The notes beneath the pieces are model-generated. The model worked only from the letters and a program-made list of their open reading frames with translations. It ran no database searches and was not told the origin of the DNA. A DNA stretch of 64,000 nucleotides from a virus (Duplodnaviria > Caudoviricetes), in the IMG/VR virus record IMGVR_UViG_3300024331_000007, positions 32,001 through 96,000 of that record; one strand, given 5' to 3'. The first letter of the stretch is position 1. Each line of letters opens with the position of its first letter. Of this stretch, positions 1,925 to 30,385 are shown in pieces. The position numbers and the translations under genes are program-made.

Positions 1925-2004
1925 TGGTAGGCGCGGTTGGATTCGAACCAACGACCTGTTTCTTATCAGGAAACTGCTCTGAAACCGGGCTGAGCTACGC
2001 GCCT
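1925..2004 (-). tRNA. tRNA-Ile(GAU)
   Basis: AGGCGCG/CGCGCCT acceptor, CT-GAT-AA loop, GTTCGAATC, encoded CCA. Confidence 0.92.
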
Positions 2005-3217: not shown

Positions 3218-3302
3218 TGGCAGGGGTGACAGGGATCGAACCTGCTATGAGTTTCCTCGCCAGTTTTGGAGACTGGTGTCGTACCATTACGACTACACCC
3301 CT
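3218..3302 (-). tRNA. tRNA-Trp(CCA) with extra variable-arm hairpin
   Basis: AGGGGTG/CACCCCT, G73, CCAGT-CT-CCA-AA-ACTGG, GAG-GAAA-CTC extra arm. Confidence 0.82.
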
Positions 3303-3312
3303 ATAAAATCTA

Positions 3313-3402
3313 TGGCGGGAGATGAAGGACTTGAACCTTCGGTGTGAGATTTATCTCATTCGGGTTTGGAGTCCGATGCTGTCGCCGCTGAGCCAATCTC
3401 CC
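3313..3402 (-). tRNA. Class II tRNA (Ser-like body) with CCA anticodon
   Basis: GGGAGAT/ATCTCCC, G73, CT-CCA-AA loop, 19-nt variable arm TGAGA-TAAA-TCTCA. Confidence 0.75.
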
Positions 3403-3405
3403 GTA

Positions 3406-3648
3406 TTAACCTTCAAACTTTTCCAGAATTTCCTCACCCATTCCAACTTTGATAAGTTCTTCTGCTCTTGCAATTCCTTTGACTTTTGCCTCTTCCTTGG
3501 TTACGTAACCTTCGGAAAGTATCGTCATTTGAAACCATGCTTTCGGTTTGGCTGTTTTGTAATGACCTCTCAATGCCCATCCCTTTTTGGTATCTGGCGC
3601 ATCGAATGTATAGATCAGGTTAGACCAAAACTCGTCAAACGATTCCAT
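3406..3648 (-). CDS. Hypothetical protein
   Basis: 80-aa ORF within the tRNA cluster. Confidence 0.6.
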   Translation of the reverse strand: MESFDEFWSNLIYTFDAPDTKKGWALRGHYKTAKPKAWFQMTILSEGYVTKEEAKVKGIARAEELIKVGMGEEILEKFEG

Positions 3649-4001: not shown

Positions 4002-4646
4002 ATGCCCAATACCGCCAATCTCGTTTGTGATTATTGCAATTCAACTTTTGTTAGAACATCTAAAGATATCGCATCATCCCGAATCGCTAATTCTAAATCA
4101 AAATTCTGTTCTCGAACATGTATGGGATTATCCAATATAACAACGAAAACGGTTACGTGTTTACAATGTAACAAACTCTTTCAAAAACAAGCACATCGAA
4201 TTAAAAAATCACCTAATCATTTTTGTGATCGTTCATGCTCAGCCAAATATCACAATGTTCATAAAACTATTGGAACTCGGCGTTCAAAACTTGAAATTTT
4301 TCTGGAATCTAAACTTCGTAAGTCATATCCAGAATTGAAACTCCTGTGCAATGATAAATCTGCCATTAATTCAGAACTCGATTTCTACTTCCCAGAGTTA
4401 CAACTTGCAATAGAATTAAACGGAATACTCCATTTTGAACCCATTTATGGTAATAGCAAACTGACTCAAATTCAATCGAATGATACTAAGAAATCCTTTT
4501 TATGTCATCAGCAGCATATCAATCTTGCTGTTATCGACTGCTCTACATATTCTCATCTAACTGAAAAAGTTAAAAACAAATATTGGAACATTGTTAATAA
4601 CCTTTTAGCAAATATGGCGGGGAATATGGGTAACGATCCCACCTGA
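4002..4646 (+). CDS. Free-standing endonuclease: Zn-finger repeats plus DUF559/Vsr-like PD-(D/E)xK domain
   Basis: Repeated CxxC...FCSRxC; ELDFYFPELQLAIELNGILH; likely start MPNT 5 nt after TAAATA. Confidence 0.75.
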   Translation: MPNTANLVCDYCNSTFVRTSKDIASSRIANSKSKFCSRTCMGLSNITTKTVTCLQCNKLFQKQAHRIKKSPNHFCDRSCSAKYHNVHKTIGTRRSKLEIFLESKLRKSYPELKLLCNDKSAINSELDFYFPELQLAIELNGILHFEPIYGNSKLTQIQSNDTKKSFLCHQQHINLAVIDCSTYSHLTEKVKNKYWNIVNNLLANMAGNMGNDPT

Positions 4647-4694
4647 TATTCCTGATCGACAGTCAGGCAACCACTCCATGCAGTTCCATTCCCC
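4615..4694 (-). tRNA. tRNA-Asp(GUC), divergent T-loop
   Basis: GGGGAAT/ATTCCCC, G73, CCTGA-CT-GTC-GA-TCAGG, T-loop ATCGTTA, CCA; overlaps the endonuclease 3' end. Confidence 0.75.
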
Positions 4695-5609: not shown

Positions 5610-5622
5610 ATAAAACTAAACT

Positions 5623-5698: not shown

Positions 5699-5713
5699 AT
5701 TTGAAACTAAACT

Positions 5714-5789
5714 TGGTGCATTCGGAGGGATTTGAACCCCCATCAATTCGATTAAAAGTCGAGTATAATGTCCGTTATACGACGAATGC
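5714..5789 (-). tRNA. tRNA-Lys(UUU)
   Basis: TCGA-CT-TTT-AA-TCGA, TTCAAAT, ACCA. Confidence 0.9.
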
Positions 5790-6185
5790 ATTTTTTAAAT
5801 ACTTACTTGCCGCAACAAATAGTTTAGGATCATCATTAAATAATCCAAGAACTCTATTACAGGTATTACAGATTGCTCCTCTAAACTTTAATGTTTTGTG
5901 GTCGTGATCTAAAACCAATTTCTTTACTTTTCGATTACAAATCTTACAGACGCCATTGGCATCCTTTTTAATCTTTTCTATCGTTTCGTTTTTTGTACCT
6001 AATTTCTCTCGCCAACGATAGATTTCACGTTTTTCCTTTGTGCCGCTATAAAAACTTTGGGAAACTCGACAACACCAAACTTTCTTGTTCGATTTTAGAA
6101 CAATTGGTATGTATCCACAATGTTCGCATATCGCCATTTTATTTTGAACATCGATGTTTGTTAGTTTATGTACCCGTTTACCCAT
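5775..6185 (-). CDS. Endonuclease VII-like HNH nuclease
   Basis: CKIC...LVLDHDHKT..FRGAICNTCNRVLGLFNDDP; 3' end overlaps tRNA-Lys 5' end. Confidence 0.82.
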   Translation of the reverse strand: MGKRVHKLTNIDVQNKMAICEHCGYIPIVLKSNKKVWCCRVSQSFYSGTKEKREIYRWREKLGTKNETIEKIKKDANGVCKICNRKVKKLVLDHDHKTLKFRGAICNTCNRVLGLFNDDPKLFVAASKYLKNAFVV

Positions 6186-6202
6186 TTTCTTCCTAAAATG
6201 TA

Positions 6203-6226
6203 AAATCCTCGCCGTAGCGAGGATTT
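6203..6226. terminator. Hairpin, possible terminator or regulatory stem
   Basis: AAATCCTCGC-CGTA-GCGAGGATTT, perfect 10-bp stem. Confidence 0.45.
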
Positions 6227-6247
6227 GGAAAATACACAAATCCTCGC

Positions 6248-6458: not shown

Positions 6459-6509
6459 GCGTAAATGTATTTATCCTTGAAAAAAGTTTTTGGATCAGTT
6501 TTGGCAAAA

Positions 6510-7007
6510 TTATTTTTGGTCCTGTGCCGCCCTCTGATACGCCTTGTCAGCGATTCTCTGGAACAATGCCTTTGTTTTCTCGAAGATAGACTCAAATGCC
6601 CAACGAATTGGATCGTTCAGTAATGTCCATGCCGCATTCCACGGCCAAAAAACCATCCACCCAATGATTCGATCTGAATGTTCGTCAACCATTACGGTAG
6701 ACGGCTTCTTCGAGTATGCAAAATCTTTCTTTGCCTTTTTCTTGATAAAGACGGACCACTTGCCGATTGAATATACTACGCCAGCCAACAGATATAAAAA
6801 TAGAGAGAAAATAAATTCTTTGGGATTGTGGCGAAGCCATGTGAAGATCGGAACGTTTCCGAAAAATTGAAGAATCAATGCGGTTGCAATTGCCACTCCT
6901 GTTGCCCAACCGGGCGATGCTTCTTCAGAGAGGCAAACAAGTATGGTGAATGAAACGACTATCAACGCCCAAAACCAAAACGTACCTACGATGAATAATT
7001 CGAACAT
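6510..7007 (-). CDS. Hypothetical multi-pass membrane protein
   Basis: Several hydrophobic segments; W/P-rich WMVFWPWN. Confidence 0.75.
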   Translation of the reverse strand: MFELFIVGTFWFWALIVVSFTILVCLSEEASPGWATGVAIATALILQFFGNVPIFTWLRHNPKEFIFSLFLYLLAGVVYSIGKWSVFIKKKAKKDFAYSKKPSTVMVDEHSDRIIGWMVFWPWNAAWTLLNDPIRWAFESIFEKTKALFQRIADKAYQRAAQDQK

Positions 7008-7183
7008 GTCTTTTCCTTTTCTGTGTTATTTTTGTTTTCGATTACTTCCACTAGTTTCTTTGTGTTTTCGATTACTTCCACTAGTTTCTTTGTGTTTTCG
7101 ATTACTTCCACTAGTTTCTTTGTGTTTTCATCGAGACGCCAACCGATGATAATTGCAGCGATAATTATTGAAACTGGTATCAT
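6986..7183 (-). CDS. Small membrane-anchored coiled-coil protein with (ENTKKLVEVI)3
   Basis: ATGA overlap with the Nudix stop; N-terminal TM segment then three exact 10-aa repeats. Confidence 0.6.
   Translation of the reverse strand: MIPVSIIIAAIIIGWRLDENTKKLVEVIENTKKLVEVIENTKKLVEVIENKNNTEKEKTCSNYSS
7033..7129. repeat. 30-bp tandem repeat, 3.2 copies
   Basis: TGTTTTCGATTACTTCCACTAGTTTCTTTG x3 exact, no spacers. Confidence 0.95.
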
Positions 7184-7596
7184 AACCACCCCAACTTTCT
7201 GAATTTTTCGATACACGGCTTCCATATTTTTGGCTGTAAATTCTTCAATTCTGAAATTGGATACCACTTCCAGTTTCCAATTTTGTGCGGTTCATTTTCT
7301 TTTGGTTCGCCGCTGACATATTGCCCCACATAATAGACAGTGAGATAATGCTTGTCTTCGTCTGGGTGCAAATCTTCTGTGAATCCAATCAACTCAACTT
7401 TGCCAACTTTTAAGCCGCACTCTTCCAACGCCTCTCTACGTGCGCATTCTTCGGTGGTTTCGTACAGTTCAAGTTTTCCACCGGGTAAACTTAATTTGCC
7501 ATTCCCAAAATCTGATTCGCGGATTCCAAGCAAAATGGAATCATCTTTCTGAATGATCAATCCTACTCCGATTTGTGGTCGTTTGATTTTTGACAT
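7180..7596 (-). CDS. Nudix hydrolase
   Basis: Nudix box GGKLELYETTEECARREALEECGL. Confidence 0.92.
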   Translation of the reverse strand: MSKIKRPQIGVGLIIQKDDSILLGIRESDFGNGKLSLPGGKLELYETTEECARREALEECGLKVGKVELIGFTEDLHPDEDKHYLTVYYVGQYVSGEPKENEPHKIGNWKWYPISELKNLQPKIWKPCIEKFRKLGWL

Positions 7597-7610
7597 GATT
7601 GACTTTGTTT

Positions 7611-7700
7611 TGGGATAATCTGGAGAGGGACTCGAACCCTATGATTATTTGGGTAGTTAAAAGCTACCTTGGCTCCCCGCCAGCGCAACAGATTATCCCA
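7611..7700 (-). ncRNA. tRNA-Lys(UUU)-like RNA with 11-12-bp terminal helix
   Basis: TGGGATAATCTG/CAGATTATCCCA, GGTAG-CT-TTT-AA-CTACC, AGGG-TTCGAGT-CCCT. Confidence 0.65.
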
Positions 7701-7712
7701 AACTTGTTAAAT

Positions 7713-7874
7713 TTACTTTGATAACTTACCTATGATTCTATCAGCAATAATAACAATTACCAATCCGAAAAGAGCCGTCGCGCCAAAAAGATTTGGACTA
7801 TGAGATGCCACGCCTACGGCAATCGCCGTTAGGAACATACAAAATAGGCACAATAAAAAATCTCGAATGTCCAT
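7713..7874 (-). CDS. Small membrane protein
   Basis: Two TM segments from MDIRDF. Confidence 0.5.
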   Translation of the reverse strand: MDIRDFLLCLFCMFLTAIAVGVASHSPNLFGATALFGLVIVIIADRIIGKLSK

Positions 7875-7875
7875 G

Positions 7876-8088
7876 TTAGTATCCGCTTGGAATTGTGATT
7901 GGAAGGCCGAGGGTACGAATAACCTTTGCCATTCCACGAGCGCGTTCTCGGGCCATGTTAGCTCCGCTGGAATTGCCATCGAAAGAATTTTTGACAGTAT
8001 CGACCAAACGAGAGAACTCGGCTTGAACTTCAGTCACGGATTCAAGAGTTACTTTGACTGGCTGTGTTGCAATTGGATTTTTAGGCAT
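7876..8088 (-). CDS. Hypothetical protein
   Basis: 70-aa ORF with GAAAGGGAAATC RBS. Confidence 0.65.
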   Translation of the reverse strand: MPKNPIATQPVKVTLESVTEVQAEFSRLVDTVKNSFDGNSSGANMARERARGMAKVIRTLGLPITIPSGY

Positions 8089-8102
8089 GATTTCCCTTTC
8101 TG

Positions 8103-8399
8103 TTATACGTCAAGTTTTTGGGTATGCTTGTGTACAAACTCAAAATTACAGACTGTGCAGCGACCCTTGTAAAAACTGTAATATTCGCCGTTCTCAACGC
8201 CTTGACTGTAATCTTCGCGGAATGTTTGTGGTTCAGATTCGTCTACTTTTTTCGCCTCTGCAAGTTTTTCGATAAGAACATTGTATGCCTTAATCGAAAC
8301 TTTTCCATAGGCTTCATTTAACGCCGTTCTCGCGGCCTCGACTTTGTTTGTGTATGTCTGAGTACATTTTGGGCAAACTGTCCAATTATCGGCCCTCAT
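8103..8399 (-). CDS. Hypothetical Zn-ribbon protein
   Basis: CPKC...CTVC; GAAAGGGAATCG RBS. Confidence 0.7.
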   Translation of the reverse strand: MRADNWTVCPKCTQTYTNKVEAARTALNEAYGKVSIKAYNVLIEKLAEAKKVDESEPQTFREDYSQGVENGEYYSFYKGRCTVCNFEFVHKHTQKLDV

Positions 8400-8414
8400 C
8401 GATTCCCTTTCTGA

Positions 8415-8651
8415 TTATTTCGGCGGATAAATGTGAGGATGTTTCAGGATCGATTCAGCAGCATGAATCCATGCGGCTTCTGGTGTTTTGTCAGGCCATG
8501 CAAACCGAAGTCCTTTGGCCGCAAAAATTTCGTAGTTAAAAATACGAACAGGAACAGGACTCGGCGTTGAATACTCATCAAAAAATTGCTTCACAACTTT
8601 TGCTTTTGGAAAATGATTGCGAACAATTTTGATTGCTTCAATCTTTGTCAT
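8415..8651 (-). CDS. Hypothetical protein
   Basis: 78-aa ORF; same GAAAGGGAATCG RBS. Confidence 0.65.
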   Translation of the reverse strand: MTKIEAIKIVRNHFPKAKVVKQFFDEYSTPSPVPVRIFNYEIFAAKGLRFAWPDKTPEAAWIHAAESILKHPHIYPPK

Positions 8652-8965
8652 CGATTCCCTTTCAAAGTTTCAGCAATGAGTTGGATTGATTACCAACTTG
8701 ACTTGTACTGCAACGAATCCCGATAGCATAGCCCCTGATTGTTAGGGAAAATTTTTTAGGACCTTTTCGAACGATCCTACTATGTATCTAACCAGCCCAT
8801 CGTTGCCCCATAGATTGTATGCAAGCGGTATATATGCCAGCTTTGTTGGCTCCGCTGATATTTGCTAGATGCCCATTGTCGCCAATGGCAATATCAATAC
8901 AATTTCAGTCGTCCTATGAAACGGCAGTCCAACACTGCCAGTCATTGCGATACAAACCAAGTATA

Positions 8966-9154
8966 CTAAATATCCACTCGGATGTCAAATAAATACGGAC
9001 AATTTAGTAAAGGCTTTAGAATCACTGTCATATGGACACTTTGAATCCCATTTTCATTTATCTGAATGTAGTCCACCGTCTCAGGATCGATATTTGATTG
9101 CTTGAGATAATCTGTTACGGCTTTCGCCATCTCCTGCTCATTACGCATGTTCAT
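8966..9154 (-). CDS. Hypothetical protein (early, probably leaderless)
   Basis: TTGACT-17-TATCAT 6 nt before MNMRNE. Confidence 0.55.
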   Translation of the reverse strand: MNMRNEQEMAKAVTDYLKQSNIDPETVDYIQINENGIQSVHMTVILKPLLNCPYLFDIRVDI

Positions 9155-10877: not shown

Positions 10878-10953
10878 GGCGGATATAGTTCAATGGCAGA
10901 ACGCTTGCCTGTGGCGCAAGTTGTTGAGGGTTCGAGTCCCTCTATCCGCCCCA
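10878..10953 (+). tRNA. tRNA-His(GUG)
   Basis: G-1:C73, CTTGC-CT-GTG-GC-GCAAG, TTCGAGT, CCA. Confidence 0.92.
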
Positions 10954-28268: not shown

Positions 28269-28595
28269 ATGGCCTCAATACTTCGAGTTCTCGGACAGGC
28301 ATATCCTACAGCTAATGTTGAAACGACTTTTTATACTTGTGCAACCAACTCAGTCGTAATCTCTACTTTTTTCATATGTAATTCGGGCCCATCTCAAGAC
28401 CTAGTATCTGCAAGAATTTGTGTCGGTGGAGCGTCGTCGGATAACAAGCAACTATTATGTTCAAATTTGGTAATTGGTGGAAGTAGCATTTTAGAAATAA
28501 CCGCTGGCTTAACTCTTGCAAATACGGATGTTATAAAGGTTACATCCCAAACTGGAACAACTACATTCCAGCTTTTCGGGCAGGAGAATATGTAA
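28269..28595 (+). CDS. Probable virion/fibre assembly protein
   Basis: 108-aa beta-rich ORF between fibre genes. Confidence 0.6.
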   Translation: MASILRVLGQAYPTANVETTFYTCATNSVVISTFFICNSGPSQDLVSARICVGGASSDNKQLLCSNLVIGGSSILEITAGLTLANTDVIKVTSQTGTTTFQLFGQENM

Positions 28596-30385
28596 TGGCA
28601 ATAAACAGCTATCCACCCAATGAACTACAAGGGCCACAAGGACAGCAAGGACCACAGGGACAAAATTCTGGACAAATTTATTACCTAGACCCAACCACTA
28701 ACTCAGATATAGTTGGTTTCTTTGTTGCCAGTCCAACCCCTGTTGCAGATCATCCCGATGCAACTTTGTCAGTATCCTCTACTGGCAATTCAATTGTTCT
28801 TCTTGGACAATTTGCTACTCCTTTGGGTTTTCCCGGTATTTTTACGAATCCTGCTGGAACAGCAACCAGAAATTTTTGGGTTTCGACTGGAGATATAACA
28901 CAAGAAGCACAATTAATTGTTGAAGGTTATGTGTGTGATATCGATGGCAGTAGTCCAGTGTTATTGCTAACTAATCATTCTTCAATTTTTAGCGGCATCG
29001 CTCCTCAAATGATTAATTGGCCCGTTGTAATTTCAACATCATTTCCAATGGTAGTGACCGATAGAATAGAATGGAAAGTATACGCTCAACGCATGGGCGG
29101 TCCAGACCCATGCAATGTCACTGTTTATTTTAATGGTATAGAAGATCAAAGTTTTATTCAAACAACCATTACTTCAGGAAGAGTGGGGCCACAAGGAACA
29201 CAGGGAACCCAAGGAAATCAAGGCGAACCTTCCACTGTGCAAGGACCGCAAGGATCAACTGGCTCGACTGGTTCACAAGGAAACCAAGGCAACCAAGGCA
29301 ACCAAGGAACACAGGGATCACAGGGCAACCAAGGAAACCAAGGCAACCAAGGCAACCAAGGAACACAGGGATCACAGGGCAACCAAGGAAACCAAGGAAG
29401 CACTGGCTCGACTGGTTCGCAAGGAAACCAAGGCAACCAAGGCAACCAAGGAACACAGGGATCACAGGGCAACCAAGGAAACCAAGGCAACCAAGGCAAC
29501 AAAGGAACACAAGGAACACAGGGATCACAGGGCAACCAAGGCAACCAAGGAAGCACTGGCTCGACTGGTTCGCAAGGAAACCAAGGCAACCAAGGCAACC
29601 AAGGAACACAGGGATCACAGGGCAACCAAGGAAACCAAGGCAACCAAGGCAACCAAGGAACACAAGGAACACAGGGATCACAGGGCAACCAAGGCAACCA
29701 AGGAAGCACTGGCTCGACTGGTTCGCAAGGAAACCAAGGCAACCAAGGAACACAAGGAACACAGGGATCACAGGGCAACCAAGGAACACAGGGAACACAG
29801 GGCAACCAAGGAACACAAGGAACACAGGGATCACAGGGCAACCAAGGAAACCAAGGAACACAGGGATCACAGGGCAACCAAGGAACACAGGGAACACAGG
29901 GATCACAGGGCAACCAAGGAACACAGGACTCATTTTTCATTCAGGGAACACAATTCTCTTTAGGTGGGTCTGGAACTGGTATTCAAAATGTTCTAGGTTT
30001 ACAGACGGGAACGTTAGTAAATTCTGCAACTTATGAAGTCACTGCAATTATTGGTTCGCAACTTACCGCTGGAACTCAGGGTCTTCAGCTTGCATTACAA
30101 TGTTCCGTGGCTGGTGCAACTGTCGCTGCGTCTTTTGTTGGAAGTCAGGGCGCTCTTGCTACGACTGGAACAGCGAGTGCATCTCTAGGCTATCTAACAG
30201 GACAAGGTGTTCAAGGACCGCAATTTAACGAAGTTGCAGGATTGGGTATGGCAGAAATAAAAGGAATCGTCATTACCCCAAGTACAGGATCGCCTGTTAT
30301 AGGAATCCAAGCAAAAGGCGTTCAAGCAACTGCGCTTGGATGGATAAAGGCAAACTCGTATTTGAAGGTTACAAGAATCTCATAA
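28595..30385 (+). CDS. Collagen-like tail fibre protein
   Basis: About 80 G-X-Y triplets (QGN/QGT/QGS) between globular domains. Confidence 0.85.
   Translation: MAINSYPPNELQGPQGQQGPQGQNSGQIYYLDPTTNSDIVGFFVASPTPVADHPDATLSVSSTGNSIVLLGQFATPLGFPGIFTNPAGTATRNFWVSTGDITQEAQLIVEGYVCDIDGSSPVLLLTNHSSIFSGIAPQMINWPVVISTSFPMVVTDRIEWKVYAQRMGGPDPCNVTVYFNGIEDQSFIQTTITSGRVGPQGTQGTQGNQGEPSTVQGPQGSTGSTGSQGNQGNQGNQGTQGSQGNQGNQGNQGNQGTQGSQGNQGNQGSTGSTGSQGNQGNQGNQGTQGSQGNQGNQGNQGNKGTQGTQGSQGNQGNQGSTGSTGSQGNQGNQGNQGTQGSQGNQGNQGNQGNQGTQGTQGSQGNQGNQGSTGSTGSQGNQGNQGTQGTQGSQGNQGTQGTQGNQGTQGTQGSQGNQGNQGTQGSQGNQGTQGTQGSQGNQGTQDSFFIQGTQFSLGGSGTGIQNVLGLQTGTLVNSATYEVTAIIGSQLTAGTQGLQLALQCSVAGATVAASFVGSQGALATTGTASASLGYLTGQGVQGPQFNEVAGLGMAEIKGIVITPSTGSPVIGIQAKGVQATALGWIKANSYLKVTRIS
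29185..29926. repeat. 9-bp collagen repeats with 144-153-bp higher-order period
   Basis: ACTGGCTCGACTGGTTC recurs at ~29257, 29401, 29554, 29707. Confidence 0.9.

What the first reader, a model, noticed from the sequence alone, without database searches (positions are those of the whole stretch)
7611..7700. Isolated tRNA-Lys(UUU)-like RNA closed by a perfect 12-bp terminal helix
Seen: canonical anticodon arm (GGTAG-CU-UUU-AA-CTACC) and T-arm (TTCGAGT), but the ends pair as TGGGATAATCTG/CAGATTATCCCA, burying the CCA; the 7-bp acceptor next to the T-arm is broken. Known: tRNA-Lys(UUU) is the target of PrrC and of PARIS. Inference: a non-chargeable decoy for anticodon nucleases, or a tRNA-mimic regulatory RNA upstream of the Nudix gene.
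Basis: partly seen in the sequence, partly recalled or inferred. Interest (0 to 1): 0.62.

Follow-up and report, generated by a model that had tools for sequence, protein, structure and literature searches.

The report
Clamped tRNA-Lys look-alike in giant phage
A 94-base gene in the tRNA region of a 360-kb uncultured phage makes a tRNA-shaped RNA whose two ends are zipped into a 12-14 base-pair helix. Two related phages keep the same shape through matching mutations, so it is a selected tRNA look-alike rather than a working or dead tRNA, and its job is still untested.

Summary
On the minus strand at window 7609-7702 lies a cloverleaf with a D arm, a Lys-type anticodon arm, an 11-nt variable loop and a 4-bp T arm. 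ARAGORN at default settings and Rfam tRNA both miss it.

I found two syntenic homologues in metagenomic phage contigs, L061:3484-3579 and L082:654-750.
- The core is almost invariant, and every window/L061 difference avoids the paired columns (P=2.5e-5).
- In L082 the clamp differs at seven consecutive pairs, all compensated, so the pairing is selected.
- L082's clamp has no CCA, so the "buried CCA" is a coincidence.
- The anticodon loop is the canonical tRNA-Lys loop in two copies and mutated (C33, UUC) in L061.
- The E. coli PARIS/AriB site motif is absent.

The element always sits a few bases before the ribosome-binding site of the next gene. That gene is Nudix here and a 152-aa ORF in the relatives.

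Best reading: a conserved, non-chargeable tRNA-Lys-derived mimic. A decoy or ligand role is inferred, not shown. Rivals are a cis-acting processing or stability module and an irregular real tRNA.

The scan has noted other clamped tRNA-like RNAs, in this genome and on other phage DNA. I class this as a new variant of a known kind, of moderate interest.

The parts
7609..7702 (-). Whole clamped tRNA-like element (94 nt), single copy in the 359,890-bp genome
   Evidence: CM R1 gives 113.8 bits here and no other hit in the genome. Homologues are L061:3484-3579 (116 bits) and L082:654-750 (92.9 bits).
7689..7702 (-). 5' arm of the clamp helix (RNA positions 1-14). Its first three bases complete the AAGTTT leader motif.
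   Evidence: 14-nt perfect inverted repeat. Seven pairs are changed on both sides in L082 with pairing kept.
7609..7622 (-). 3' arm of the clamp helix (RNA positions 81-94).
   Evidence: The L082 3' arm has no CCA.
7686..7688 (-). Junction, 5' side: U, U, then G. The G pairs with the C that follows the T stem.
   Evidence: The U.U and U.C mismatches and the G-C pair are invariant in all three sequences.
7623..7625 (-). Junction, 3' side: C (pairs with the G at 7686), then U and C opposite the two U's.
7670..7682 (-). D arm: 4-bp stem (5-6 bp in the relatives) with a short GGGG-containing loop
   Evidence: Stem invariant in the three sequences. Rfam's tRNA-Sec model aligns the L082 copy as a 6-bp stem with a 4-nt loop.
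7652..7668 (-). Anticodon arm: 5-bp stem and loop CUUUUAA (anticodon UUU at 7659-7661)
   Evidence: The stem is invariant. The loop is identical in L082 and is CCUUCAA in L061.
7641..7651 (-). 11-nt unpaired variable loop. The first six bases are invariant and the rest vary.
7626..7640 (-). T arm: 4-bp stem and loop UUCGAGU (T54-Psi55-C56-type)
   Evidence: Invariant in all three. It is the only part Rfam picks up in the window (weak T-arm-only matches).
7700..7705 (-). AAGTTT leader motif, overlapping the start of the clamp
   Evidence: AAGTT precedes the clamp in all three phages. AAGTTT lies 1-8 nt before 11 of the genome's 52 ARAGORN tRNAs (P=7e-14).
7603..7606 (-). Weak Shine-Dalgarno-like AAAG, 3 nt after the clamp and 6 nt before the Nudix ATG
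   Evidence: Read. GAAAGG and GAAAG sit at the same place before the 152-aa ORF in L061 and L082.
7180..7596 (-). Downstream gene: Nudix hydrolase (138 aa)
   Evidence: PF00293, E=2e-22.
7876..8088 (-). Nearest conserved upstream gene (70 aa)
   Evidence: 48% identical to the 81-aa ORF that ends 16 nt before the element in L082, and related to the L061 72-aa ORF.

Best explanation
This is a conserved, single-copy RNA gene that probably descends from a tRNA-Lys(UUU) gene of the phage's own tRNA array. It has become a 'clamped' tRNA mimic.

The RNA keeps a full tRNA body:
- D loop GG and a T loop that can form the elbow;
- a Lys-type anticodon arm;
- a 4-bp T stem.

Its leader and trailer pair into a helix of at least 12 bp that continues the acceptor stem across a fixed 2x2 pyrimidine mismatch. 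This leaves no free discriminator-CCA end.

It is probably transcribed on the minus strand together with its neighbours, because it has no conserved promoter or terminator of its own. The clamp should block aminoacylation and protect the ends from exonucleases. The RNA would then persist as an uncharged, non-decoding tRNA-shaped molecule.

My committed mechanism is that it acts in trans as a ligand or decoy for a protein that reads the tRNA-Lys body, that is, the elbow plus the anticodon arm. The most likely target is a host tRNA-directed defence nuclease or a tRNA-binding enzyme.

Status of each step:
- Shown: the fold, its conservation and selection on the clamp.
- Inferred: that it is not chargeable.
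- Hypothesis: the decoy or ligand role.
For: Fold:
- The cloverleaf plus clamp lies within 1-5 kcal/mol of the MFE in all three sequences and is the MFE itself for L082.
- RNAalifold returns this fold.

Selection:
- The window and L061 elements are 86.5% identical, against 44-65% at third codon positions of the flanking genes. P<=1e-6.
- All 13 differing columns avoid the 50 paired columns, P=2.5e-5.
- In L082, 7-8 clamp pairs are changed on both sides with pairing kept. Slid registers give 0-1, and 1 of 500 shuffles reaches this.
- One of these changes gives a U.G pair, which fits an RNA helix on this strand.

Not a normal tRNA:
- ARAGORN default and Rfam RF00005 do not call it.
- There are two invariant mismatches in the acceptor.
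- No CCA sits at the right distance, whereas 48 of the 52 ARAGORN-called tRNAs of this phage end in an encoded CCA and show no leader-trailer pairing of more than 2 bp.
- The phage has no CCA-adding enzyme gene.

tRNA ancestry:
- It has the same strand and leader motif as the array tRNAs.

Selection on the anticodon arm:
- The stem is invariant.
- The loop is identical between the two most diverged copies, the window and L082.
- RNase P-type recognition would not need the anticodon arm (my knowledge).

Context for a tRNA conflict:
- The phage carries more than 50 tRNAs, a T4 Rnl1-type RNA ligase and a second tRNA-Lys(UUU) with an A33 loop.
- Phage tRNA-Lys variants are known to counter PARIS and PrrC (PMC11464382, PMC12409363).
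Against: - No expression, end-mapping, binding or cleavage data exist.
- There are only three sequences, and all the compensatory changes sit in one lineage.
- L061 has a mutated anticodon loop (C33, UUC), which a strict tRNA-Lys decoy should not tolerate.
- The E. coli AriB site motif is absent, because position 39 is C.
- A stoichiometric decoy against a catalytic nuclease is a weak strategy unless it binds tightly.
- The fixed position just before the next gene's ribosome-binding site fits a cis role equally well.
- No partner protein is identified. The phage has no Ro60/TROVE gene and no RNase III gene.
Confidence: 0.45

Rival explanations
1. It is a cis-acting processing, stability or translation module of a polycistronic mRNA. 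The tRNA shape recruits host tRNA-processing or double-strand-specific RNases (RNase P, Z, E or III) to cut between cistrons. Alternatively, the clamped structure forms a protective 5' cap or 3' end, which sets the level of the gene that follows.
For: - In all three phages the element starts 1-16 nt after the previous ORF.
- It ends 3-5 nt before the Shine-Dalgarno sequence of the next gene, whichever gene that is: Nudix in the window, and a 152-aa ORF in L061 and L082.
- It has no conserved promoter or terminator of its own.
- The 5' flank carries the AAGTT(T) motif of the array's tRNA leaders.
- The clamp sequence is free to vary while the pairing is kept. The acceptor helix, mismatches, G-C pair and T stem together stack to about 19-21 layers, roughly two helical turns.
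Against: - A plain hairpin would do the same job.
- The anticodon arm and D arm are conserved although RNase P, Z and III do not need them (my knowledge).
- A fully paired leader is a poor RNase P substrate (my knowledge).
- The phage encodes no RNase III.
- No cut has been observed.
Confidence: 0.25
2. It is a genuine but irregular tRNA-Lys of the 8/4 or 9/4 type, like the allo-tRNAs and the phage 8/4 tRNAs. It would be matured by an unusual route, in which the clamp is cut or melted and the host adds CCA, and it would then decode AAA/AAG.
For: - ARAGORN default calls the L082 copy tRNA-Lys(ttt).
- Rfam's best match for L082 is tRNA-Sec at 23.5 bits, with a 9-layer acceptor, 4-bp T stem and 6-bp/4-nt D arm.
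- 8/4 tRNAs occur in phage tRNA clusters (PMC5389517).
- The anticodon loop is canonical in two of the three copies.
Against: - The score is far below the gathering thresholds (23.5 against 47), and the window copy gets no tRNA hit even at E<=10.
- There are two invariant mismatches in the acceptor.
- The discriminator is U, U and G rather than the A73 that LysRS uses in E. coli (my knowledge).
- No CCA is encoded at the right place, unlike 48 of the phage's 52 ARAGORN-called tRNAs.
- Leader-trailer pairing beyond the acceptor is itself under selection.
- L061 has C33 and a different anticodon.
- The phage already has two tRNA-Lys(UUU) and two tRNA-Lys(CUU) genes.
Confidence: 0.12
3. It is a DNA-level element. 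The inverted repeat would be a pair of protein-binding or terminal repeats of a small mobile or recombinogenic cassette derived from a tRNA gene, and the RNA fold would be incidental.
For: - There is a precise presence/absence. L079 joins the Pyr_excise gene directly to the 153-aa ORF with no element, while L061 has the element exactly there.
- Gene content changes at both borders of the element.
- Inverted repeats recognised by one protein would also co-vary.
Against: - There is one copy per genome, always in the same neighbourhood.
- No target-site duplication is visible.
- The clamp word is not reused elsewhere in the genome.
- Substitutions inside the core respect the cloverleaf stems.
- L082 has a U.G pair in the clamp, which would be a mismatch in a DNA repeat.
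- The tRNA T-loop and D-loop signatures are specific to this strand.
Confidence: 0.05
4. It is a decaying tRNA pseudogene with a fortuitous flanking repeat.
For: - The acceptor is broken, the T stem is short, and standard tRNA finders do not call it.
Against: - It is far more conserved than neutral sites.
- The same 'defects' are fixed in three phages.
- The clamp is maintained by compensatory changes.
Confidence: 0.02

Closest known systems
Irregular tRNAs and allo-tRNAs with 8/4 or 9/3 acceptor branches, including 8/4 tRNAs in phage tRNA clusters (Mukai et al. 2017, PMC5389517)
   Same: - Lengthened acceptor helix, 4-bp T stem, and a long-stem, short-loop D arm.
- Picked up only by a tRNA-Sec-type model.
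- Located in a phage tRNA region.
- The authors also raise a non-translational, regulatory role.
   Different: - No long variable arm; the 11-nt variable loop is unpaired.
- Two fixed mismatches in the acceptor.
- The helix runs on for at least 7 more pairs.
- No free CCA end.
- I did not test homology to allo-tRNAs.
YrlA-type bacterial and phage Y RNAs (tRNA-like module on a long stem formed by the two ends; Rfam RF02553; Chen et al. 2014, from my knowledge and earlier scan notes)
   Same: - A tRNA-like module with a D/T-loop elbow, carried on a helix made by the 5' and 3' ends.
- Non-decoding.
   Different: - The arm order here is the ordinary tRNA order with an open anticodon loop, not the permuted YrlA layout.
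- No Rfam Y-RNA hit.
- No Ro60/TROVE gene in the phage.
Phage T5-type tRNA-Lys(UUU) variants that neutralise PARIS and PrrC-type defences (PMC11464382, PMC12409363, PMC11555353)
   Same: - A phage-encoded Lys(UUU)-type anticodon arm in a phage rich in tRNAs.
- Position 39 differs from the E. coli target, as it does in the T5 tRNA.
   Different: - Those are complete, chargeable tRNAs that replace the cleaved host tRNA.
- This RNA has sealed ends and a broken acceptor, so it could only compete or bind, not substitute.
Leader-trailer processing stalks (RNase III sites around rRNA and in T7 early mRNA; my knowledge). Earlier scan notes also describe 11-bp clamps around giant-virus tRNAs.
   Same: - Pairing of the sequences just before and after a structured RNA.
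- The pairing is maintained by compensatory change.
- The position is intercistronic.
   Different: - The clamp encloses a defective tRNA body, not a normal tRNA or rRNA.
- Ordinary tRNAs of this phage have no such clamp.
- No RNase III gene in the phage.
T4 stable RNAs C and D (species 1 and 2) of the T4 tRNA cluster (my knowledge, not checked here)
   Same: - Small stable non-tRNA RNAs encoded within a phage tRNA region.
- Function still unknown.

Membership tests
Canonical tRNA (Rfam RF00005 / ARAGORN) | Score at or above the family threshold (RF00005 gathering score 29 bits; ARAGORN default) | tested here: not met
   There is no RF00005 hit at gathering, nor at E<=10 in 7500-7800. ARAGORN default is silent in the window and finds it only at a relaxed threshold that yields about 200 false calls. 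The L082 copy does pass ARAGORN default.
Canonical tRNA (Rfam RF00005 / ARAGORN) | 7-bp acceptor stem with a free single-stranded N73-CCA end | tested here: not met
   Layers 6-67 and 7-66 are U.C and U.U in all three copies. The helix continues at least 7 bp beyond position 1/72. No CCA follows the would-be discriminator.
Canonical tRNA (Rfam RF00005 / ARAGORN) | T loop of the T54-Psi55-C56 type closed by G53-C61, and a D loop with GG | tested here: met
   The T loop is UUCGAGU closed by G-C, and the D loop contains GGGG. All are invariant. The T stem has only 4 bp.
Canonical tRNA (Rfam RF00005 / ARAGORN) | Anticodon conserved among orthologues, with U33 | tested here: inconclusive
   The window and L082 have CUUUUAA. 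L061 has CCUUCAA, that is C33 and UUC. Only three sequences are available.
allo-tRNA and 8/4 tRNAs (PMC5389517) | 12-bp acceptor branch split 8/4 or 9/3 | tested here: inconclusive
   A 4-bp T stem plus 8 acceptor layers can be drawn. Two of those layers are mismatches, and the helix does not end there.
allo-tRNA and 8/4 tRNAs (PMC5389517) | Long base-paired variable arm | tested here: not met
   The variable loop is 11 nt with no stem in any predicted fold.
YrlA / Y RNA | Match to the Rfam Y-RNA models, and the permuted layout with a sealed acceptor | tested here: not met
   No such Rfam match was found. The order is D arm, anticodon arm, T arm, as in a normal tRNA.
YrlA / Y RNA | Ro60/Rsr (TROVE) partner gene in the genome | tested here: not met
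   PF05731 is absent from the 360-kb genome, and the control genomes respond. The host genome is unknown.
Substrate or decoy of PARIS AriB (E. coli specificity) | U36-A-A-U-C|A41 site with U39 (PMC12409363) | tested here: not met
   The element reads U-A-A-C-U-A, so position 39 is C. In the paper the tested U39-to-A change abolishes cleavage, and no C39 variant was tested. The specificity of AriB homologues in the unknown host is not known.
Substrate or decoy of PrrC/RloC-type anticodon nucleases | tRNA-Lys anticodon loop C-U-UUU-A-A | tested here: inconclusive
   The loop is met in the window and L082 but not in L061.
Substrate or decoy of PrrC/RloC-type anticodon nucleases | Binding to, or cleavage by, the nuclease | not testable with these tools
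   Binding and cleavage need bench assays.
RNase III processing stalk | About two turns of double helix cut by RNase III | not testable with these tools
   The stack is 12-14 bp plus a 2x2 loop plus 5 stacked pairs, about 19-21 layers. No cleavage data exist, and the phage has no RNase III gene.

The most novel reading that the evidence does not exclude
The element is the founding member of an uncatalogued family of phage 'clamped tRNA mimics'. These would be uncharged, exonuclease-proof copies of the tRNA-Lys body. They would bind and neutralise a host tRNA-Lys-directed immune nuclease or another tRNA-reading sensor. This would be an RNA anti-defence decoy, distinct from the known strategy of supplying replacement tRNAs.
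Probability: 0.2. Interest if true: 0.8.

Novelty: new variant of a known kind. Interest (0 to 1): 0.55.

Why it matters
Large phages carry many tRNA genes, and recent work shows these often serve to outflank host defences that cut tRNAs. A tRNA-shaped RNA that is kept under selection, yet cannot be charged, points to a second use of the tRNA shape. It could act as a ligand or decoy, or as a processing signal inside mRNAs.

Standard tRNA finders and Rfam miss the element, so such genes are likely under-counted. The clamp, with its clear compensatory changes, gives a simple handle for mutate-and-restore experiments. The element is also small enough to test by expression in a laboratory strain, although the phage itself is uncultured.

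Tried and rejected
Searches for more homologues that found nothing useful:
- blastn of 6500-9000 against 50,697 phage records gave no match.
- Seven IMG/VR pattern or protein scans gave only ordinary tRNA-Leu genes or a chance hairpin.
- The one metagenome scan gave a chance hit inside a coding region (L074).
- The one genome scan gave an ordinary tRNA-Leu (L081).
- CM R1 and R2 found nothing in five to six distant relatives with TerL 55-79% identical.
- They also found nothing in L062, L075-L077, L079, L080 and L083-L086.

Other dead ends:
- Two close contigs, those of P0004 and P0023, have no DNA on hand.

Ideas considered and dropped:
- The clamp word as a repeated promoter or operator. It is unique in the genome.
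- An antisense sigma-70-like promoter whose -10 lies in the clamp arm (11 of 12 matches in the window, 9 of 12 in L061). I treated it as a probable by-product of the GATAAT word in the arm and did not follow it up.
- Leader-trailer clamps as a general feature of this phage's tRNAs. They are not; extension is at most 2 bp in all 52.
- Descent from a close paralogue in the genome. The best tRNA match is only generic, 44 of 66.
- The conservation being due to a protein frame. The L082 gene call that runs through the element is an N-terminal extension with no support, and the substitution pattern follows the stems.
I made no comparison.

Full report
**Where it lies.** The window is bases 32001-96000 of a 359,890-bp IMG/VR virus record.
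- It is a jumbo myovirus. It has a T4-type large terminase, a tail sheath and gp15-like proteins.
- Its terminase is about 52% identical to that of Pseudomonas phage PA5oct.
- ARAGORN finds 52 tRNA genes in the genome. Almost all are on the minus strand between 11 and 43 kb. They include amber and ochre suppressors and many type I tRNAs with long variable loops.
- The finding sits in this region, between tRNA-Lys(UUU) at window 5714-5789 and tRNA-His at 10879-10953.

**Check of the observation.**
- The terminal helix is longer than reported. Arms 7609-7622 and 7689-7702 are 14 nt, perfectly complementary and 66 nt apart.
- Inside lie a D arm (7670-7682, GGGG in the loop), an anticodon arm (7652-7668, loop CUUUUAA), an 11-nt variable loop, and a 4-bp T arm with loop UUCGAGU (7626-7640).
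- Between the T arm and the long helix there is one G-C pair, then two pyrimidine mismatches (U.U and U.C).
- ARAGORN default, Rfam at gathering thresholds, and Rfam at E<=10 all fail to call a tRNA here.
- A relaxed ARAGORN run draws a 79-nt tRNA-Lys(ttt) with those mismatches. That threshold gives about 200 spurious calls genome-wide, so it proves nothing alone.
- The fold is more stable than shuffles (z = -3.5).
- A perfect 14-nt inverted repeat within 120 nt is expected about 0.03 times per 64 kb.

**Homologues.** Direct DNA searches failed. Going through the neighbouring proteins gave two syntenic contigs.
- The Nudix protein led to L061, a 23.9-kb JGI contig with Nudix 66% identical. It carries the element at 3484-3579.
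- The 152-aa ORF that follows the element in L061 led to L082, a 1.8-kb Logan contig. It carries the element at 654-750.
- The gene order is shared: small conserved ORF, element, (152-aa ORF), Nudix, 165-aa membrane-like ORF, then the Lys/Asn tRNAs.
- Flanking proteins place L061 and L082 closer to each other than to the window.
- A more distant relative, L079, joins the Pyr_excise gene directly to the 153-aa ORF with no element. The element is therefore a discrete module that was gained or lost.
- It is single-copy in the window's genome.

**Evidence for selection and for the fold.**
- The window and L061 elements are 86.5% identical. Third codon positions of the flanking genes are 44-65% identical, which gives P<=1e-6.
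- This is within the range of true tRNA orthologues between the two phages, 66-96%.
- All 13 differing columns avoid the 50 columns of the 25 consensus pairs (P=2.5e-5).
- In L082 the core is again nearly identical, but the clamp differs at seven consecutive pairs, each compensated. The changes are G-C to A-U, U-A to A-U, A-U to U.G, A-U to G-C, U-A to G-C, C-G to U-A, and U-A to G-C.
- The tool counts 8 pairs changed on both sides, against 0-1 in slid registers. Only 1 of 500 shuffles reaches this.
- The clamp length stays at 12-14 bp.
- The cloverleaf plus clamp is the MFE for L082 and lies within 1-3 kcal/mol of the MFE for the others. RNAalifold returns it.
- Because the two arms lie 66 nt apart around an unchanged core, one recombination event cannot explain the swap. 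Pairing itself has been maintained.
- The core stems never vary, so they give no covariation evidence either way.

**What the comparison overturns.**
- The 3' arm of L082 has no CCA, so the 'buried CCA' of the window and L061 is a coincidence of the clamp sequence.
- The anticodon loop is CUUUUAA in the window and L082, the deepest split. That loop is therefore probably ancestral. In L061 it is CCUUCAA, with C33 and anticodon UUC.
- Nudix is not the constant neighbour. In L061 and L082 the 152-aa ORF comes first.
- What is constant is that AAGTT immediately precedes the clamp, and a Shine-Dalgarno-like (G)AAAG(G) follows it by 3-5 nt before the next start codon.
- AAGTTT is the characteristic leader motif of this phage's tRNA genes. 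It occurs in 11 of 52 leaders, 1-8 nt before the tRNA (P=7e-14). This points to descent from an array tRNA gene.

**Why it is not an ordinary tRNA.**
- 48 of the phage's 52 ARAGORN-called tRNAs end in an encoded CCA, and none shows leader-trailer pairing beyond 2 bp.
- The element has no CCA at the correct distance.
- Its would-be discriminators are U, U and G.
- It has two fixed mismatches in the acceptor.
- Selection acts on pairing well beyond position 1/72.
- Rfam's best match for L082 is the tRNA-Sec model at 23.5 bits, against a threshold of 47. It draws a 9-layer acceptor, a 4-bp T stem and a 6-bp/4-nt D arm.
- This is the signature by which Mukai et al. found allo-tRNAs and 8/4 tRNAs, some in phage tRNA clusters (PMC5389517). 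Unlike those, the element has no paired variable arm and no free end.

**Context checks.**
- The phage has no Ro60/TROVE gene, no RNase III gene and no CCA-adding enzyme gene.
- It does have a T4 Rnl1-type RNA ligase and an Rnl2-type ligase. In T4, Rnl1 repairs tRNA-Lys cut by PrrC (my knowledge).
- It also has a second tRNA-Lys(UUU) with an unusual A33 loop.
- The published AriB determinant U36-A-A-U-C|A41 (PMC12409363) is not matched, because the element has C at position 39.

**Interpretation.**
- Shown: a conserved, strand-specific, tRNA-shaped RNA fold with a selected clamp.
- Inferred: the sealed ends prevent charging and decoding, and protect the RNA.
- The anticodon arm and the D/T elbow are conserved, although tRNA-end processing enzymes do not need the anticodon arm. 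For that reason I favour a trans-acting tRNA-Lys mimic that binds a tRNA-reading protein, such as a defence nuclease, a synthetase or a modification enzyme (0.45).
- The main rival is a cis module for processing, stabilising or presenting the downstream ribosome-binding site (0.25).
- An irregular true tRNA (0.12), a DNA-level cassette (0.05) and a pseudogene (0.02) are less likely.

**Relation to earlier scan notes.**
- The same stretch was noted once before from an overlapping window (e1-5402001).
- Another clamped tRNA-like gene is reported in this genome (e1-5402000).
- Clamped tRNA-shaped RNAs were reported on other phage and giant-virus DNA (e1-3425754, e1-5566547, e1-5471948).
- These notes are leads only and I did not verify them. 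They suggest a recurrent, uncatalogued design rather than a one-off.

**Verdict.** I class the element as a new variant of a known kind (irregular or tRNA-like RNAs of phage tRNA arrays) and score interest at 0.55.

Noticed in passing
window 1925-2004, 2654-2737, 3218-3302, 3313-3402, 4615-4694 (minus strand): Type I tRNAs with extra-long variable loops or small variable arms: Ile 80 nt, Glu 84 nt, Trp 85 and 90 nt, Asp 80 nt. Several sit next to a normal-length isoacceptor, and all have an encoded CCA.
   Followed up: partly
window 7713-7979 versus 7876-8088 (minus strand): The 88-aa ORF just upstream of the element overlaps a 70-aa ORF in another frame. Only the 70-aa ORF has relatives in L082, L061 and L079. 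The 88-aa ORF may be spurious, and 7703-7875 may be largely non-coding. A weak sigma-70-like site lies at 7763-7735.
   Followed up: partly
window 7590-7619 (+ strand); L061 3596-3569 (its minus strand): An antisense sigma-70-like promoter has its extended -10 (TG-n-GATAAT) inside the clamp's 3' arm. It matches 11 of 12 positions in the window and 9 of 12 in L061. It would drive a transcript antisense to the element. It may be only a by-product of the arm sequence.
   Followed up: no
whole genome; in the window, for example 5699-5713, 5610-5622, 2645-2653: The AAGTTT motif lies 1-8 nt upstream of 11 of 52 tRNA genes and often directly after the previous tRNA's CCA (P=7e-14). It may be a spacer processing signal of the tRNA array.
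   Followed up: partly
window 5775-6239 (minus strand) versus L061:5766-6401: At the same position beside the tRNA-Lys genes, the window has an endonuclease VII-family ORF and L061 has an HNH endonuclease ORF. Nuclease cassettes appear to turn over at the edge of the tRNA block.
   Followed up: no
genome 24801-24876 (outside the window, minus strand): A second tRNA-Lys(UUU) has the anticodon loop C-A-UUU-A-C, with A33 instead of the near-universal U33. It may be a nuclease-evading variant.
   Followed up: no
genome 160856-160987, 25091-25222, 21589-21720, 163413-163544 (outside the window, minus strand): Further T-arm-bearing RNAs are missed by ARAGORN default. One has a 10-bp terminal helix abutting a T arm and is followed by a U run. 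One is a tRNA with a hairpin inserted in the anticodon loop. One is a 93-nt UAU tRNA with a long variable arm.
   Followed up: no
L061:6378-6473 and 6848-6937: The relative carries a 96-nt tRNA-Lys(UUU) with a variable loop of about 29 nt, next to a normal tRNA-Lys(UUU). It also carries a 90-nt tRNA-Asn with a variable arm.
   Followed up: no
genome 153083-154204 (L087:1102-2223) and 193680-194132: There are T4 Rnl1-type (PF09511, 53-55 bits) and Rnl2-type (PF09414, 102 bits) RNA ligase genes. This is tRNA-repair-type equipment.
   Followed up: partly
window 28595-30385 (+): A 596-aa protein has collagen triple-helix repeats (PF01391, E=6e-38).
   Followed up: no
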